Below, one piece after another: positions 37,090-50,511 of a stretch of DNA of 64,000 nt. Each line of letters opens with the position of its first letter. Positions within the stretch are counted from its first letter, which is position 1. A program made the translations under genes and the position numbers. Under the pieces are notes generated by a model. The model made no database searches. It was not told the origin of the DNA and saw nothing but the letters and a program-made list of their open reading frames with translations. The stretch is from Podarcis liolepis (taxonomy: Eukaryota): assembly GCA_965112155.1 (NCBI GenBank), contig OZ218098.1. One strand, written 5' to 3'.

Positions 37090-37292
37090 TTAGCAGAAGA
37101 TGTGCAAAACTTTGCGGAAGTAGTTCCTAAATTCAGTGTTGAAGACGGTGTAGATGATGGGGTTGAGGGCACTGTTGACGTAGCCCAGCCATGTCACAAT
37201 GCTGGTTACCTCGCTGGGGATGGTGCAGGAGTGACACAAGGCTCTGGTTATGTGGACCACAAAGAAAGGAGTCCAGCAGAAAAGGAACACAC
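37090..37292 (-). CDS. DRD4: DRD4 exon 4 coding part (203 bp): TM6-TM7 and C-terminus ...FRKVLHIFC*
   Basis: Minus-strand ctgtctgccacAG acceptor; TAA stop; ORF 37090..37323. Confidence 0.96.
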
Positions 37293-38511
37293 CTGTGGCA
37301 GACAGAGAGACAAGGACAAACAAACTTAAGTTCTGATGGCTGCAGGCTCCCCACGAAGCCAGAGGTCAGGTAACTTAAATCTTCAAATCTCTGTGCCTCC
37401 GTTTCTCTGATGCAGAAGAGTTTCATTCAAGAATAACATCGAGTAGCAACTTGGAAAAGTGGAATGGATTCCACAATGCGAGGCGAAGTGTCATTAGTAA
37501 GCTCATGACCCCCAGTGCTATTTCTTTATAACTCCTGAATCAGGAGAGGCAGGGAAGCCCTGGCTCAGTGTCTGGACCCAACACTGGGCTGGATGAGAGT
37601 GAAAAAGCTGAGCCTGAACCCTGACAAGAAGGAGGTGTCTGTGGGTGAGTACAAGGCTGCCAACAGGTGGATATAAAGGGCTGGATTTGGTGGAGAGGGG
37701 AGCAGACCAGCAGAGGCCTCAGACTCTTCGCTTTATTTAATTTTTTAAAGCAAGTCAATCAGGCAAAAATGAAGACAGCTCTAATGCTTCAGCACGCAAA
37801 GGAAATAATGTTGACCCTTCCCAACTGGGAAGCTGATTGGAGGGAGATACTGAGGTGTTTTGTTTTTGTTTTGTTGTTACAATATTGAAAGAATACAATT
37901 TATTTTGTTTAAATTGGTACCACCTCAGCACTCAAATCCATACCTAAATAAGTGCCGAAGAGGCCCCCACACAAGCAGAGCCATTTCTAACTCCCTGCCT
38001 AAGGGAACTCTTCTCACCCCATGTGTGAGATTATTAGAGAATCCTCTGGTGTCTGGTTCAATTATTGCCCTGGGTGTGTAAAACAACAAATCTTTGTTGT
38101 GCATGTGTCTTTCCCACATGCTCAGTGTCATATTCAAACTGAGCCATTGTGCCTGTGCAAACCATAGTTAATTACTTAACTGAGGCAGGAATGGGAAACC
38201 CGAGCCATCCAGACGTGGCTGGGATTCCATGTCTCACATTAACCCCAGCCAGCATGGCAAATGGTGAGGAATAGTGGAACTTTTAGACCAACAACAATTT
38301 GAGGGCCACAGGTATCCCATACATGGGTTAAGGCATTTGTATACTGCCCTTCTTAATATTTAGCCCAGTAAGAGTACATTGGCTTGTACATTTTGGGAGG
38401 CAATTCCCTGAACACCAGCATAGGAATCTTATAAGCAAACAGAGGATATGTGGCCAGGAGGATGCAGTGCTGGTGAACATCAGCATTACAACCAAATTGG
38501 GCTTTGGACAT

Positions 38512-38560
<49 letters not shown>

Positions 38561-40334
38561 GCATAACAATAAATCTTCATTTAATACAAGCCAAGATCTT
38601 TATGCTGAAGCCAGTACACGATGGGGGGAGGGGAGAGATGGGGGAGATGTGGTTGGACCCAATAGTTGTCCCCGGCTTCATAAACCATTCTTTATAATTA
38701 CAGATAGGTAGCCGTGTTGGTCTGCCATAGTCAAAATAAAAAAATTCCTTCCAGTAGCACCTTAAAGACCAACTAAGTTAGTTCTTGGTATGAGCTTTCG
38801 TGTGCATGCACACTTCTTCAGATACACATTCTTTATAAAACACTGTATGGACAATGAAGGTGCACAGGGGAACGGTGACCAGATTACCATTTTCAACTTG
38901 GAGCAGAGCTCCTATGCTTTTACAGGAGGGAGATGTAGTTTCAACCTGCCCAAATCACTCTTGGGAGACTTGCTGATGCTGTACACTGCAGGGCTTCGTG
39001 GGAGAGGCATCGTGACAGGTCGTAAAGGCTTCACCCAACCCCTGTGTTTAGCTTGAGAGCTCTTCAGCAGACAGGTACTCTTTACTACTCAACAGGAGGG
39101 AAGCCGGTTATAATTTTTACAAATGCCTCAGAAAGCCTGCAAGTTTAGTCTACAATTAGCAGAAAAGCCTCCAAAGAGGCAAATTGCTGGTGGAGGAGAG
39201 GAAGCCCTTAAGCACTGAAGAGAAAGAAAAAGATTTCACAGCTGCAAGGGTCCATTATGTGACCATTTAGTTCGACCTGAATAAAGCTGGTCACAGAAAA
39301 AACACATAGCCAGTTCTGGTACTGAAGGCGGGCTTCTGGCACAGCTTCTCACATAATTTCAAAAGGTTTTTTGACAATAATGGGTTCTATCACCACTGCC
39401 CCACTCCAACCTCTTGGCCCACCATTCTGCTGAATTTTCTCCTGAGATTGCTGAAATATGCTATTGGATTTCTCATTAAACACCTCCATTAAAATGAAAT
39501 TTCCATTAAAACTTTCCTAATATAGCATTGTTGCTTGCCACCCCAATCTCTGAGCAGTGCAAGATTCCAGGGGTTCCAAGTGCTTACCCAGGGTTCGTCT
39601 TTCTTTGGAATGAGGCACAGCAGAGACTGTGGTATCTTTAGAATAGATGGTTTATTTACACATATAAACAACCTGAGCCTACGATGGAGGGAGGTCACAG
39701 CATTAACACCCCAAAGGGGCCTTGCTTCTCCCAGAACCACAGCCTTTGATTGCAGCAGAGGTCAGCCATGGCTCTCTGACCCTTTCACTGAGATGCAGAG
39801 GCTGTTTAGGAGAAGCTCCAGAGCTCAGTGGTAGAGCACATGTATTGCATGCAAAAGGTTTCGGGTTCAATTCCTTGGATCTCTAGGTACGGCTTGGGAA
39901 GACTCATGCCTGAAATCTGGAAGAGCCCCTGCCAGTCAGATGGACCTGTGGTCTTATTCAAAGTTTTGGTGCTGACCTTTAAAGCCCTAAACGGCCTCGG
40001 TCCAGTATACCTGAAGGAGTGTCTCCACCCCCATCGTTCTGCCTGGACGCTGAGATCCAGCGCTGAGGGCCATCTGGTGGTTCCCTCATTGCGAAAAGCA
40101 AAGCTACAGGGAACCAGGCAGAGGGCCTTCTCAGTAGTGGCGCCCGTCCTGTGGAACGCCCTCCCATCAGATGTCAAAGAGATAAACAACTACCTGACAT
40201 TCAGAAAACATCTTAAGGCAGCCCTGTTCAGGGAAGTTTTTAATATGTAACACTGTACTGTTTTTAACACTTGATTGGGAGCCGCCCAGAGTGACTGGGG
40301 AAACTCAGCCAGATGGGCGGGGTATAAATAATAA

Positions 40335-40379
<45 letters not shown>

Positions 40380-43300
40380 ACATCAAAAGAGCAGTTCCAG
40401 TTCCAATTCAAATGGCCTGGTCATGGCCACCTTTGATGCTACAGAAATAACGTGGACGGCACATGAAGGAGTTCCTAGTCACAGGGGTACCAATGCCTGC
40501 CACAAAGGAGGGCCCATTTAGAGTACTCAGGGTGGAATATATAGGAGAAGTAACATTTCCTGCTAGTGTCTGACAGTGCTCTTTACATTTCATGCATTAC
40601 AGGGGGGAAATCTAAACTTTGTATGCTCTCCTCAATTTCCCCCCACTAATCATGCTTTATGGAAGTTAAGTGCACTGATTCCAATTTGCAAAAGCTAGTG
40701 CACCCTCTGATAACAGGATGTAGATGCTCTAGTGCCTCAGTCAAAAGTCTCATGTATGCAGCAAAGCAAACACTGTACACAGCTTCCTCTGCGTGGCACA
40801 GCCCTTTCCATGTACAGAACTATTCCCTTCACCACAGTGAATGTGGCAGCCCTTGTAGAAGAGGGAGCACCATGTGGGTACCCCATATATACCCTCACCA
40901 GATGAGGTTGCTTCTCTGTAGCAGTTCTGAAATTCAGGCAATCAGCCATGTCAAAGGAACTGTTATGACAGACACTTTTTGACAGATTTGCAAGTTGTTG
41001 TTTTTTTAAAGCACACACACCAATTCCCAGGGTGAGTATGGTGTGTGTTCAATACAAGGGTGTACTTTTGACCCAGTACCTATTCTGTACCCACTTGGGA
41101 TATTTCTAATGTCAGATATTATAGCGCACAATCATTGACCACGGGTGCAAGCCAACCTACTATTAATTATACTATCCCTTTACAATAAAAATAAAATAGA
41201 TCCTCAGCTCATCCATATACTTATCTCCTTTGTCAGATAGCAGGTAGAGCTGTTCCCTTGCTCCTCAACACAGCTGGGAATCTCTGCATGTCTTGAATGA
41301 AGCAAGAGATCCTATCAGCCATCCATGGATGAGCCAGGCTAGCACATATGTTCAGAAGCAGAATGCCATTTATGGGTGGGAGCCCTGATTCTTCTCTTTT
41401 GTCAGAGACTTAGACTTGAAGGCGGAGTCTGGATGGAGCCCAGAGGGGATGAGTGAATCATGCAAGAAATTAAGCACAACTGGCATATGTTACTTGTGGA
41501 TAGATTCCTGCTACTTAAAAATTCAAATTGTAGCAACAAAGTTATGCTGTGCACTGCTCTGCCAGTAGGCCAGTTCTATCAGGACAATGCTGGGGAACCA
41601 TTGGCCCTCCAGATGTTGTTGGACTCCAACCCCCACCAGCATGGTCAATGGTCAGAGATAATGGGAGTTGTAGTCCAACAACACCTGGAAGGCCAAAGGT
41701 TCCTCATCCCTGTAACAAGACACCCAGCAGCAAAAGGTGTGTCATATATATTTTTCAAAATTTTCAAACAGGAGGAAGAGTTAGATTAAGATTCAGCTGG
41801 ATTTTTGTGGGTGAACATTATTATGTGAAAAAAGGTGTGTTAGGGAAACTGAAATGTTCTCTGAAAGGTGCCCACAAACGCTTCCCCTTTTTTGTCTTTG
41901 CACATTATGCTAAACCATGGCTTATTAAACTATATTTTATTAAACCATTACTTAGTGGTATGTACAAACCTTGCTGAGTGTGTTATCGTTGGTTTATGAA
42001 CCTTGTTTTATTATGGCTTGGTGCTACACGTGAACCCAGCATCTTACCTTAACTGCATTTTGGGGGGTTTTTGGCTACGCAAAGCCTCCATAGGGCAGTG
42101 GGGTGAAGGCACCCCACTGCCCTGCAGAGGCTTGAAAGGCTGTCCCCGAAGCCAGAACAGCAAGGCGGAGCGCTGCGCAGCCCTCCATCTCGCTGTTCTA
42201 GCTTGGGGATGGCTGCGCAAAGCCTCCACAGGGCAGTGGGGTGAAGGCACCCCGCTGCCCTACGGAGGCTTGAAAGGCTGTCCCCGAAGCCAGAACAGAG
42301 AGACAGAGCACTGCGCAGCGTCTTGCTGTTCTAGCTTGGGGATGCCGTGGCTTTATGGGGAAACCCCGGTCTTCCCCCTTCAGCCCCGACACTGATTTGA
42401 TTCAGAATATTTTTTACTTGTTTTCCTCCTCTAAAAACTAGGTGCGTCCTTTGCTTGGGTGCATCCTATAGAGCGAAAAATACGGCAAATCAGTATAACA
42501 CCACTTTAAATAGTCATAGTTTCATCCTAATAATCCTGGGAATCCCAGTTATTAAGGGTGCTGAGAGTTGTTAGAAGTCCTTGCTATTCTGCTCACAATT
42601 TCCAGGATGGCTTAACAATCAATTCCTCATCCCTGGGAACTCTAGAAAGGTAGGGGCTAGCTGAAGTCAGACTGAGATAGGTGGGGCAATGCCCCATTTG
42701 CCCTAATGAACCTGACTCTGCTGCACGTGGTCATGTAGGGAGATATACAAAGGACCCAGTCTGACACAGCTACTTAGATAAGCAACACTCAGTCCCATCA
42801 ATTTAGTGCTTTTGTTTAAACAGCTATCAGCACTGTGAGGTGAAGAGAGACAACAAGAGTAAAGAAAATTAGGGTAGATGTGCCCTATGGTCTGCATATT
42901 AGAATCCCAAATCCCACAACTGGTTACTGTCTGCTTCCCATTTCTGTTAATACGAGCCTTCTAAATTGTTTCTGATCCCTGTTGATTCTCAGTCCTATTA
43001 AATAACCACTGAGCATTGAATACTCACCAACCACAACCGGCAGCACCTTCATAGCTTTCCTCTCTCTGCCATTGATCTTTGCCTGCTTCCTTTTGAGTCC
43101 TTTATGTGGTGGGTATCTGAGGTGTGGGTAGGACACAGTCTGAATCCCATTGGTCACGTAGTCCCTGGGAAAAGAGCACTCGGAGCAGGTATATCGGTTG
43201 CGCTCCTCCAACTTGACCTCAGCCTGGTTCCTCTCAATGACGGGTGGCGGACAATACAGTGGCCTGTTGCCCAAGTAGATGCTGCTCTTCAGTTTGGCCT

Positions 43301-45571
43301 TCCGGGCTTCCTCCCAACGCCTAAGTCCCTGGAACATGGCACAGTACAGGACCAGCATGACAGGGCAAGGAATGAAGAAGGAGCAAATAGAAGAGTACAC
43401 AATGTAGTTGTTATCCTCCAGCTGACACAATGTAGGGTCCCGGTCTGGAACATTGTTGAGGCCAAAGATGACCGGGGAGGCCACAGCAAAAGCAAAGATC
43501 CATGTGGTGGAGATGAGGACCAGCTGCCTCAGGTCAATTTGCCGCCGGTTGTAGTTCAGTGGGATGGAGACAGCAATGAACCTGGAATGACAAAGAAGAA
43601 GGTGAAGCTGGGAGTAGTTTTGTGGAAGTGAATGGCCTAGAGCATCTCAATCTCTACCATCAGGTGGCCAACACAGTTGTTGCTGCTGACTCCAACTCCC
43701 ATCACTTCTGACTGTTGGGAATGTTGGTGGGAGATCCAGCAGTGTATGGGGGCACCAAGTTGGCTACCCAAGCTCTAGGAATCCAGCCAGGATCTTTGAA
43801 TGCACACACTGTCAGAGGTAAACAGCTTTTGCCTCATTAACCTGTTCTTATATCCTTGACTTTGTTTCTCCTGCTCCCATCAATCTATTCCCTGAAATTT
43901 GTTTTCTCCCTTGCTGCCCTTATGCTGGGAAGTGTTTCCTAGAACATCTTACTTCCTTCAAAACCCACCTTTTCTTTGAAGTCTTTGTCTGTACCCACTA
44001 GTCTCCATTGCCTGTTGTAGCTTGCCCCAACCTGGTGCCTTCCCGATGTTGTTGAACATTCAACCCCAGTCAGCACAGTCCAAGCTTATGATCACCTAGA
44101 GAAGCCCCTTTCAGATGTTATCCCTCCACACACTGAAAGAACAGATGGAGAGGAAAGAAGGTCCATGGGCACCAGGCCTATGCCACAACCTCCTTGCCAG
44201 CACCACAGTAGTCTGTCACTTATTGAGTGGGAGATCTGATGGGGGACTCTATGTGTGTTTGGCTGATTGTTTCTCAGGTTTCCTTATGTGATCAGGAGCC
44301 AGCCGCCTTGAATGGATCAAAGCTTCATGTTGGACTGTTGAAAGTGATTAAAAAACAAGCAAACCAGCATGTGCTGGACCAATTTATAATATATGTCAAG
44401 GAATCAATGCAGAGTAATTTGCTAAAACTATTTTCAAGTGGATTGTCAAACAAAACAGTAAATTAACACTGGGAAATCTGTATCAATCAATGACCTAAAA
44501 TGACTTCTGAACAGGGCATATTTGCTAATGGAATAGTTGTATACTAGTTCAACAAAATTATAGCTTTTCAGTCTTTAGACAGGAGTTCTGTGGTCCAGAG
44601 GTAATACGGACAGATGCAGGCTCAGCACAAGCTTGGTTGACAGCCAGCAGTCCAGGGAACAGTTCTACTGAACAAAGGCTTTTGCTTTCACAGGACTCAA
44701 ATTCCTTCTTTCCATTTGTGAAATCTGTGGAAGAGACATAATTGGTGCAATTGGTGCAATTGTATCAGACCAGCCAGCTCAACAGCCAGCACAACTGACA
44801 CCAGCACCAACCGTACGGGATCAAGCTTCAGCACCAAGATCTCAACCAGCTCAGAGAGGGGACCCTATTCCCTACTGGATAGATCACTGGTTTAACTAGT
44901 GGACTGGGACCCATTGCCGGGACATGGCATAATCTAAGATTGGCTGCAGCAATAGCAACACCATCATACAAATACATGGGTAAAAAGAAAAAGAAATGCG
45001 TCCCCAAATACATGTTTGGGTTAAATGTGAGTCCTGGATCTGAAAAGGCTGAAGACTACTGGGGTAGACAGACCAGGATATATCAAGTTCAAAATATACA
45101 GTGCCAGAACTCAGGATTGTCTTGATCAATCTAAGGATTTGAAAATGCTCCAAAATATATCAGACCTCCACTCTTGAAGCTACCTCATCAGTTGTACCCT
45201 GGGGACAAGGTTTTTAATCTGAAAGTGATGGTATGTATCCAAACTGTATTATTATAGGATGGCAAGTTATTCCAAACGCCTTCTGAGGCCCCTACTGCAG
45301 TTCATGTGTTGTTGTTTATGAATGAAACTCAAATCCAGCTGGAAGCTGTTCAAGTGTTGAGATGTGAACACATGAATGTGTGGATAGTGGTGGACAGGAA
45401 AATAACGAAGCTGGGGAAATCCCAAAAGCTGAAATCCAAGGCAGGCAAAGGAGCTTACCGATCAACGCTGATTGCACAGAGGTTGAAAATGGAAGCTGTG
45501 CACAGCATCACATCCATGGTCATCAAGGCATCGCACAGGACTGTGCTCAAGGACCACACACCTCCTTGAAA
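37090..45571 (-). CDS. DRD4: Dopamine receptor D4, spliced CDS, 5'-partial: complement(join(37090-37292,43028-43581,45459-45571))
   Basis: Class A GPCR motifs: TM3 [22 protein letters not shown]5 [29 protein letters not shown]6 CWTPFF, TM7 [15 protein letters not shown]-terminal Cys. Exon sizes 113 and 203 bp and intron phases as in DRD4; adjacent to DEAF1. Confidence 0.97.
38515..38558 (+). repeat. (AC)n microsatellite in DRD4 intron 3
   Basis: Direct reading. Confidence 0.95.
38699..38827 (-). mobile_element. Penelope-like element terminal (pLTR) fragment
   Basis: ggtagccgtgttggtctg...cagtagcaccttaaagaccaac...tgagctttcg...ttcttcagatac is typical of sauropsid PLE termini and carries the hammerhead motif. 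Confidence 0.7.
38788..38825 (-). ncRNA. Minimal type I hammerhead ribozyme of a Penelope-like element
   Basis: Minus strand reads GTAT-CTGAAGA-A-GTGTG-CATG-CACAC-GAAA-GC-TC-ATAC: CUGANGA and GAAA cores, stem II, palindromic minimal stem III (AGCU), CUC triplet, stem I GUAU/AUAC. Confidence 0.8.
39808..39954 (+). mobile_element. Squam3-like SINE interrupted by an L2 insertion
   Basis: AGCTCAGTGGTAGAGCACATGTATTGCATGCAAAAGGTTTCGGGTTCAATTCC...CTGCCAGTCAGATGGACC, same family as 35052. Confidence 0.7.
39955..40378 (+). mobile_element. L2 LINE 3' end (ORF2 C-terminus, 3' UTR, (ATT)n tail)
   Basis: [19 protein letters not shown]...LRS...[15 protein letters not shown]...[10 protein letters not shown] is the L2 C-terminal signature; tail ggcggggtataaataataa(att)n. 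Confidence 0.9.
42040..42485. mobile_element. One-ended element of the same TIR family with a 138-bp tandem duplication
   Basis: Right end gtgcatcctatagagcgaaaaatacgg matches the TIR of 59420-59936; no left TIR found. Confidence 0.75.
43028..43581 (-). CDS. DRD4: DRD4 exon 3 (554 bp): TM4, ECL2, TM5, third intracellular loop, start of TM6
   Basis: Minus-strand tcattccAG acceptor and G|gtgagt donor; [14 protein letters not shown]...[10 protein letters not shown]; ORF 42924..43484. Confidence 0.96.
44740..45310 (+). mobile_element. Degenerate endogenous retrovirus internal fragment (integrase C-terminus) in DRD4 intron 2
   Basis: [10 protein letters not shown] (about 45183-45212) and PTAVHV (about 45291-45308) resemble the class I ERV integrase tail; upstream Q/P-rich segment. 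Confidence 0.4.
45459..45571 (-). CDS. DRD4: DRD4 exon 2 (113 bp): [38 protein letters not shown]
   Basis: Minus-strand ctctctgtcttcAG acceptor and CG|gtaagc donor; ORF 45455..45652. Confidence 0.96.
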
Positions 45572-50260: not shown

Positions 50261-50511
50261 CAAACACAGCGACAGGACAGTCCGTCCAGGATAACTGACT
50301 GTTTCAACGTTCTTCCTCAGCAAGTAAAATGTCCAAAAGGGTACACAGGATACATATGGTTCAGGTAACTGATCTCTAATATTAGAGACTTCATTTTGTA
50401 CAGTGAGAATTTCTGCCTTCGATCTGTGTACCCTTTTGGACGTTTTACTTGCTGAGGAAGAACATTGAAACAGTCTGTTATCCGGGAAGGGCTGCCCTGT
50501 TGCTGTGTTTG
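50261..50511. repeat. 88-bp-arm inverted repeat (50261-50348 / 50424-50511), each arm with a CTGAGGA...GAAAC hammerhead-like core; probable Penelope-like inverted terminal structure
   Basis: Arms are near-perfect reverse complements by eye; the 75-bp spacer contains the palindrome tctctaatattagaga. Confidence 0.75.

What the first reader, a model, noticed from the sequence alone, without database searches (positions are those of the whole stretch)
38788..38825. Intact minimal hammerhead ribozyme on the sense strand of DRD4 intron 3
Seen on - (the DRD4 pre-mRNA strand): GUAU CUGAAGA A GUGUG-CAUG-CACAC GAAA GC UC^AUAC, with catalytic core present, predicted cleavage between 38792 and 38791, inside a Penelope-like terminal fragment. 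Known: Penelope-like elements carry minimal type I hammerheads with a palindromic, nearly absent stem III that cleave efficiently mainly as dimers. Inference: DRD4 pre-mRNA could be cut co-transcriptionally if the motif dimerises in trans with another DRD4 or PLE transcript, giving a concentration-dependent effect on intron 3 processing.
Basis: partly seen in the sequence, partly recalled or inferred. Interest (0 to 1): 0.75.

Follow-up and report, generated by a model that had tools for sequence, protein, structure and literature searches.

The report
Common transposon ribozyme in DRD4 intron
A short piece of a very common reptile jumping gene, carrying a known kind of tiny self-cutting RNA motif, sits in an intron of the dopamine receptor gene DRD4; with over eleven thousand identical copies of the motif's core in the genome it is likely a harmless passenger rather than a regulator of that gene.

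Summary
The motif is real, at the stated coordinates, on the DRD4 sense strand in intron 3. It lies in a 129-nt insertion (38826-38698, minus) between 12-bp target-site duplications, identical to the pseudo-LTR end of a Neptune-type Penelope-like retrotransposon (RT plus GIY-YIG). The genome holds 11,672 exact copies of the 34-nt core, one per 135 kb. Such minimal hammerheads are a published PLE feature, need a partner, and cleave weakly or only with the element's protein. No second family copy lies in DRD4. Nearly all genomic copies read through the cut site, so they were made from uncut RNA; starts at the cut are rare (at most a twofold excess). Family-wide RNA reads from a related organism span the site without a pile-up of ends and show strand-specific A-to-G changes typical of editing. 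Side result: many copies begin just upstream of the ribozyme, about 30 nt after a TATA box, so this copy is likely a promoter-less copy of the transcript's first 130 nt. Verdict: new instance of a known kind, likely inert for DRD4; cleavage itself is untested.

The parts
38698..38826 (-). 129-nt solo pseudo-LTR fragment of a Neptune-type Penelope-like element, from the probable transcript start to the 3' tail end
   Evidence: 133 of 133 bases (38827-38695, including short matches to the flanks) identical to the pLTR end of L024; 98.5% over 137 bases to L104
38788..38825 (-). minimal type I hammerhead motif; predicted cut between 38792 and 38791
   Evidence: sequence; descriptor scan; stems I and II predicted with probability 0.64-0.98 when folded alone
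38800..38813 (-). stem II hairpin, a perfect 14-nt palindrome
38793..38796 (-). 4-nt palindrome A15.1-G-C-U16.1; no stem III possible in a monomer
38827..38838 (-). 5' copy of the 12-bp target-site duplication (its last base also fits the element)
38686..38697 (-). 3' copy of the 12-bp target-site duplication
37293..43027 (-). DRD4 intron 3 (5,735 nt), host of the insertion
   Evidence: GT donor after 43028 and AG acceptor before 37292
43028..43581 (-). DRD4 exon 3
   Evidence: 7tm_1; best hit D4 receptor; acceptor read
37093..37292 (-). DRD4 exon 4, coding part
   Evidence: 7tm_1; frame; acceptor

Best explanation
This is a 129-nt passenger copy of the terminal repeat of a young, very abundant Neptune-type Penelope-like retrotransposon, carrying that family's standard minimal hammerhead, and it likely does not cut DRD4 pre-mRNA to any meaningful degree. 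Shown: boundaries, target-site duplication, identity to the pLTR of an RT plus GIY-YIG element, copy number, and no second family copy in the gene. Inferred origin: the parent element is transcribed from a TATA/initiator promoter in its pLTR, starting just before the ribozyme. Its protein nicks AT-rich DNA and starts reverse transcription internally at the tail site about 130 nt into the uncut RNA, then runs off the RNA's 5' end. That leaves a promoter-less copy that begins at the ribozyme. Inferred behaviour in DRD4: stems I and II can fold, but stem III needs a second molecule. With no partner in cis and about 1.5 kb to the next exon, the intron would be spliced first.
For: 11,672 exact 34-nt cores (5,902 forward, 5,770 reverse), one per 135 kb; about 0.13 sense copies expected by chance in a 35-kb gene. 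Parent ORF with RVT_1, GIY-YIG and a C-X4-C-XX-C linker. One family match only in the window plus 30 kb upstream. 15,109 rows keep C17 before the cut and 719 do not; 21 of the first 30 of the latter still carry the core, with a changed base 17. 715 rows break in the 18 positions around the cut; 11 of the first 100 start exactly at it (my count by eye; 9 of 98 after merging pairs, p=0.09). 13 of 30 copies end 3-8 nt upstream of CUGA and none 9-34 nt; 3,544 of 11,672 cores keep the 14 upstream bases; a TATA box lies 30 nt before an initiator-like site there. RNA run X23: 1,204 family reads on both strands, no pile-up of starts or ends. Secondary-structure energy: productive double hammerhead +3.5 kcal/mol against two monomers, non-productive stem II duplex -16. 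Literature: monomer inactive, dimer low (PMC4209133); anole PLE ribozyme inactive without protein, uncut RNA is the main template, no reads at the cut site (PMC11167929).
Against: The core is intact and 100% identical to the family, so chemistry is possible. Starts at the cut are in twofold excess before merging pairs (11 of 100, p=0.023; 7 of the first 30 rows). Depth of inferred sense reads falls 17% from 38774 (365) to 38790 (302) while antisense stays flat (364 to 382), which fits a small cut fraction. Cut RNA may be degraded and so be missed in both genomic copies and RNA-seq. Family RNA is present, so partners exist in cells. X23 is from another organism and has no reads on the DRD4 intron flanks. 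ViennaRNA ignores tertiary and magnesium effects. The start-site reading rests on sequence motifs and end positions only.
Confidence: 0.85

Rival explanations
1. The motif cuts a measurable share of DRD4 pre-mRNA in trans, pairing through its AGCU palindrome with family RNA or helped by the element's own protein, and so lowers or reroutes DRD4 output.
For: Intact core and palindromic stem III; family RNA on both strands in a related organism; protein-assisted cleavage shown for an anole PLE (PMC11167929); slight excess of copies starting at the cut and a 17% dip of sense reads near it; tandem retrozymes are under-represented in Xenopus introns (bioRxiv 10.64898/2026.07.22.740005).
Against: No partner in cis; the productive dimer rests on 4-bp helices and is unfavourable in the energy model; about 1.5 kb to exon 4, some 25 s at the mammalian elongation rate quoted in PMC10919898; much family RNA is in edited double-stranded form; nothing marks this copy out among 11,672.
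Confidence: 0.07
2. The insertion affects DRD4 by a route other than cleavage, for example pairing with antisense family RNA and A-to-I editing, or a cryptic splice signal.
For: Family reads carry strand-specific A-to-G changes of 9-29% at several sites; Penelope is reported as heavily edited in a lizard (PMC5625713).
Against: This copy is solo, with no inverted family partner in the gene, so no hairpin forms in cis; it lacks the promoter and the upstream pyrimidine-CAG stretch; its own fold is no more stable than shuffles (z 0.09).
Confidence: 0.05
3. The 5' boundary shared by many copies marks a splice acceptor (or another processing site), not the transcription start, so solo copies derive from a spliced RNA. 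This changes the origin story, not the verdict on DRD4.
For: The upstream sequence ends in a pyrimidine run and CAG right at the boundary; in Drosophila virilis Penelope the intron end abuts helix I (PMC4209133) and lies 46 bp after the start site (PMC2377424).
Against: No shared upstream exon beyond 1-2 bases is seen in solo copies; ends scatter over 3-8 nt rather than one base; TATA-to-initiator spacing is 30 nt.
Confidence: 0.2

Closest known systems
Minimal hammerheads (min-HHR) of metazoan Penelope-like elements, Cervera and de la Pena 2014 (PMC4209133)
   Same: Type I, 4-bp helix I, extra base between 9 and 10.1, G10.1-C11.1, palindromic 15.2-16.2, location in the pLTR, thousands of dispersed single copies; reported in turtle and snakes.
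   Different: Helix II is 5 bp with a self-complementary loop (7-8 bp in Schistosoma); copies here are highly uniform.
Poseidon element PAc of the green anole, Frangieh et al. 2024 (PMC11167929)
   Same: Lizard PLE, hammerhead near the pLTR-ORF junction, two 3' ends about 35 nt apart (tail), AT-rich targets, copies made from uncut RNA.
   Different: This family has the Neptune-type zinc-finger linker; the DRD4 copy has no ORF; protein assistance is untested here.
Non-LTR retrozymes (bioRxiv 10.64898/2026.07.22.740005)
   Same: Non-coding, pLTR-derived, type I hammerhead.
   Different: Retrozymes are defined as tandem arrays with two or more ribozymes; this is a single copy with a target-site duplication.
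Host-conserved intronic ribozymes (CPEB3 HDV-like, PMC10919898; amniote intronic hammerheads, recalled)
   Same: Self-cleaving motif on the sense strand of an intron of a neuronal gene.
   Different: Those are single-locus, conserved and active as monomers; this is a recent repeat insertion that cannot form stem III alone.

Membership tests
PLE minimal hammerhead | Core C3-A9, G12-A14, A15.1-U16.1, H17 | tested here: met
PLE minimal hammerhead | Extra base between 9 and 10.1; G10.1-C11.1 pair; 4-5 bp helix I | tested here: met
   A38814; G38813-C38800; 4 bp
PLE minimal hammerhead | Absent helix III with palindromic 15.2-16.2 | tested here: met
   AGCU at 38796-38793
PLE minimal hammerhead | Located in the pLTR of a PLE | tested here: met
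   same motif about 190 nt after the ORF stop in L104, L105, L106
PLE minimal hammerhead | Self-cleavage as dimer or with protein | not testable with these tools
   indirect signs weak
Rfam hammerhead families | Covariance-model match | tested here: not met
   no hammerhead hit at E<=10
Neptune-clade PLE | Single ORF with RT and C-terminal GIY-YIG | tested here: met
   L103 ORF, 700 aa open: RVT_1 E 3.8e-12, GIY-YIG E 3.2e-05
Neptune-clade PLE | CX2-5CxxC linker between RT and EN (PMC8557442; shared with Nematis) | tested here: met
   C-X4-C-XX-C in all four long ORFs
Neptune-clade PLE | Inverted pLTRs and 30-40 bp tail | tested here: met
   13 of 30 loci with both orientations; 3' ends cluster at 82-96 and 120-126 nt from CUGA
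Neptune-clade PLE | RT phylogeny with reference Neptune elements | not tested
   no reference set fetched
Non-LTR retrozyme | Tandem repeat with at least two ribozyme units | tested here: not met
   single copy
Host-conserved intronic ribozyme | Single locus, conserved, monomer-competent | tested here: not met
   11,672 exact cores, intact target-site duplication, no stem III

The most novel reading that the evidence does not exclude
A recent burst seeded this lizard lineage with thousands of identical, promoter-less, dimer-dependent hammerheads inside host introns. When the parent element's RNA or protein is expressed, it switches them on in trans and clips many host pre-mRNAs, DRD4 among them: a transposon-tuned, genome-wide layer of RNA cleavage.
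Probability: 0.06. Interest if true: 0.7.

Novelty: new member of a known kind. Interest (0 to 1): 0.15.

Why it matters
As it stands it matters little for DRD4: it is one of many thousands of copies of a described ribozyme type. The family is a good natural test bed for an open question, what PLE hammerheads do in vivo. With over eleven thousand identical cores, orientation bias in introns and the map of copy ends can measure how often they cut. The pile-up of 5' ends at the ribozyme's edge also gives a genomic read-out of the start site and supports, for a second PLE clade, the internal-initiation model shown in vitro for the anole element.

Tried and rejected
Rfam scans: no hammerhead match. 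Insertion polymorphism from public contigs: inconclusive. X7 and X5 gave almost no flank coverage; one X3 contig (organism B) joins the unique 5' flank to about 25 element bases, short of the tool's 31-base bridging rule, so sharing between species is only suggested. No RNA holder was listed for the locus, and the RNA run had no depth on the intron flanks: no evidence on DRD4 intron expression. Orientation bias by strand-skew proxy: 28 single-orientation loci of 101 (8 without intact core and 65 with both orientations dropped), mean T-A skew -0.008 +/- 0.011, too weak to tell. Long-context folding: stems I/II fall from 0.40-0.58 (351 nt) to 0 (601 nt), which I do not trust either way. The idea that non-C17 copies are all cleavage products was rejected: 21 of 30 are base-17 variants, mostly a C17U subfamily. 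The first descriptor scan was faulty (it missed the known hit) and was redone. Lunse et al. (PMC5785218) is not held; only its title was seen. Earlier scan findings: none.

Full report
Observation. A minimal-hammerhead descriptor finds only this hit in the window and none in 200 simulated windows. Rfam has no matching hammerhead model at E<=10. The gene is DRD4. Exon 3 matches D4 receptor structures far better than D2 or D3, exons 3 and 4 match 7tm_1, and a SAND-domain exon (DEAF1-like; the name and the human synteny are recalled) lies on the other strand. Exon 2 begins at 45571, exon 1 lies beyond the window in L107, and intron 3 spans 43027-37293. The cut lies about 1.5 kb before exon 4.

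What it is. The motif opens a 129-nt insertion (38826-38698) flanked by a perfect 12-bp duplication at 38838-38827 and 38697-38686, identical over 133 of 133 bases to the end of locus L024. Upstream of that end, L024 carries a GIY-YIG frame. [quoted passage not shown] By the linker criterion in PMC8557442 this is Neptune type; no tree was built. Typical PLE structures are present: 13 of 30 loci hold the pLTR in both orientations, and 3' ends fall in two groups about 35 nt apart, the known tail. The genome has 11,672 exact copies of the 34-nt core, one per 135 kb, so about 0.13 sense copies are expected in a gene of this length by chance. No other family piece lies in the window or the 30 kb upstream.

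How the copy arose. Shown: 13 of the first 30 exact-core loci on contig C1 end 3-8 nt upstream of the CUGA, none end 9-34 nt upstream, and 17 extend 35 to over 500 nt. Genome-wide only 3,544 of 11,672 cores keep the 14 upstream bases (point changes and subfamily variants add to that loss). Contigs of three other runs also show loose ends at 38825. In longer copies a CCAAT-like box, a GC-rich box and a TATA box precede this point, the TATA 30 nt before an initiator-like site (consensus spacing recalled). Inferred: this is the start site, and solo copies are start-to-tail copies made by the internal initiation shown for the anole element (PMC11167929). A splice acceptor at the same spot is the rival, since the Drosophila intron ends at helix I (PMC4209133).

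Does it cut? Not testable here; the indirect evidence is mostly against. (a) Copies are made from RNA that spans the site: 15,109 rows keep C17 and 719 do not. Of the first 30 of those, 21 still carry the core with a changed base 17 and 9 start at the cut. (b) 715 rows break somewhere in the 18 positions around the cut. By eye, 11 of the first 100 start exactly there against 5.6 expected (p=0.023), or 9 of 98 after merging pairs (p=0.09); 7 of the 30 rows checked by script start there. This is at most a twofold excess, on the order of 1% of copies. (c) In RNA run X23 (organism D, about 12% of the run read), 1,204 reads lie on the element, 98% from other loci. Both strands are present and there is no pile-up of ends. 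Inferred-sense depth is 313 at 38792 and 302 at 38790, but 365 at 38774, while antisense is flat; that dip would fit a small cut fraction. Cut RNA may also be lost before sequencing. (d) Stems I and II fold locally, but stem III needs a partner. The productive double hammerhead scores +3.5 kcal/mol against two monomers, whereas the 14-nt stem II palindrome gives a -16 kcal/mol duplex that leaves stem III unformed; tertiary energy is not modelled. (e) Published: no monomer activity and low dimer activity (PMC4209133); no activity without protein, uncut RNA as main template and no reads at the cut in anole (PMC11167929). The CPEB3 ribozyme matters because its 2-3 min half-life matches 9.9 kb of transcription (PMC10919898); here the distance is 1.5 kb and the reaction needs two molecules.

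Editing. Family reads show T>C almost only in first-mate-plus reads (92 of 381 against 6 of 410 at 38763; 106 of 365 against 8 of 364 at 38774) and A>G almost only in first-mate-minus reads (49 of 382 against 1 of 302 at 38790), p below 1e-11, while these changes are under 0.5% in the three DNA runs. No DNA of the same individual was laid, but the strand dependence points to A-to-I editing of inverted pLTR hairpins. Heavy Penelope editing in a lizard is already reported (PMC5625713). The DRD4 copy is solo and was not seen in these reads.

Comparison and novelty. It meets every sequence criterion of the PLE minimal hammerhead that I could test, and the ORF and structure criteria of Neptune-type PLEs; it fails the retrozyme (tandem) and host-conserved ribozyme criteria. 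Paper searches (listings only, and only part of the hits listed) showed no title on a hammerhead in DRD4. Seen: PMC4209133 and PMC11167929, parts 1-2 of 4 each; bioRxiv 10.64898/2026.07.22.740005, part 1 of 5 and passages; passages of PMC8557442, PMC6765202, PMC2377424, PMC5625713 and PMC10919898; Lunse et al. by title only. No supplements were read; those of PMC4209133 list reptile motifs and may already show this family.

Verdict. Observation confirmed; interpretation partly supported. New member of a known kind, likely inert for DRD4 (0.85). Interest 0.15.

Noticed in passing
window 38698-38828, family-wide reads of run X23: Strand-specific A-to-G changes of 9-29% at several sites on both strands, near absent in DNA runs: likely A-to-I editing of inverted pLTR hairpins; one edited site (38789) lies in stem I.
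   Followed up: partly
L031-L060; L024:1410-1530: Strong pile-up of 5' ends 3-8 nt upstream of the ribozyme core, 30 nt after a TATA box; likely the transcription start of the element, or a splice acceptor.
   Followed up: partly
L061-L090: A subfamily with U at the cleavage-site base 17, linked to a second change about 40 nt downstream (23 of 29 U17 rows against 1 of 37 C17 rows).
   Followed up: partly
L071/L072, L088/L089, L080: Copies that start exactly at the predicted cut, two as head-to-head palindromic joins; possible traces of rare cleaved templates.
   Followed up: partly
L103:1798-3897, L104:2007-3899, L105, L106: Long uninterrupted RT plus GIY-YIG frames (587-700 aa) that are nearly identical, so the family is young; no copy with a full start was sought.
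   Followed up: partly
window 41606-41694: Short inverted-repeat element in DRD4 intron 3 scoring below threshold to mir-5408 and mir-1267; probably a MITE-like repeat.
   Followed up: no
window 39814-40247: tRNA-like SINE head followed by a LINE-like 3' fragment in the same intron, on the strand opposite to DRD4.
   Followed up: no
window 42072-42344 and 38515-38558: A 138-bp two-copy tandem repeat and an (AC)22 microsatellite in DRD4 intron 3, possible polymorphic markers.
   Followed up: no
window 50320-50302 (-) and 50452-50470 (+): Inverted pair of similar sequences with a CUGAGGA...GAAA string but no hammerhead stems; probably another repeat with an inverted end.
   Followed up: no
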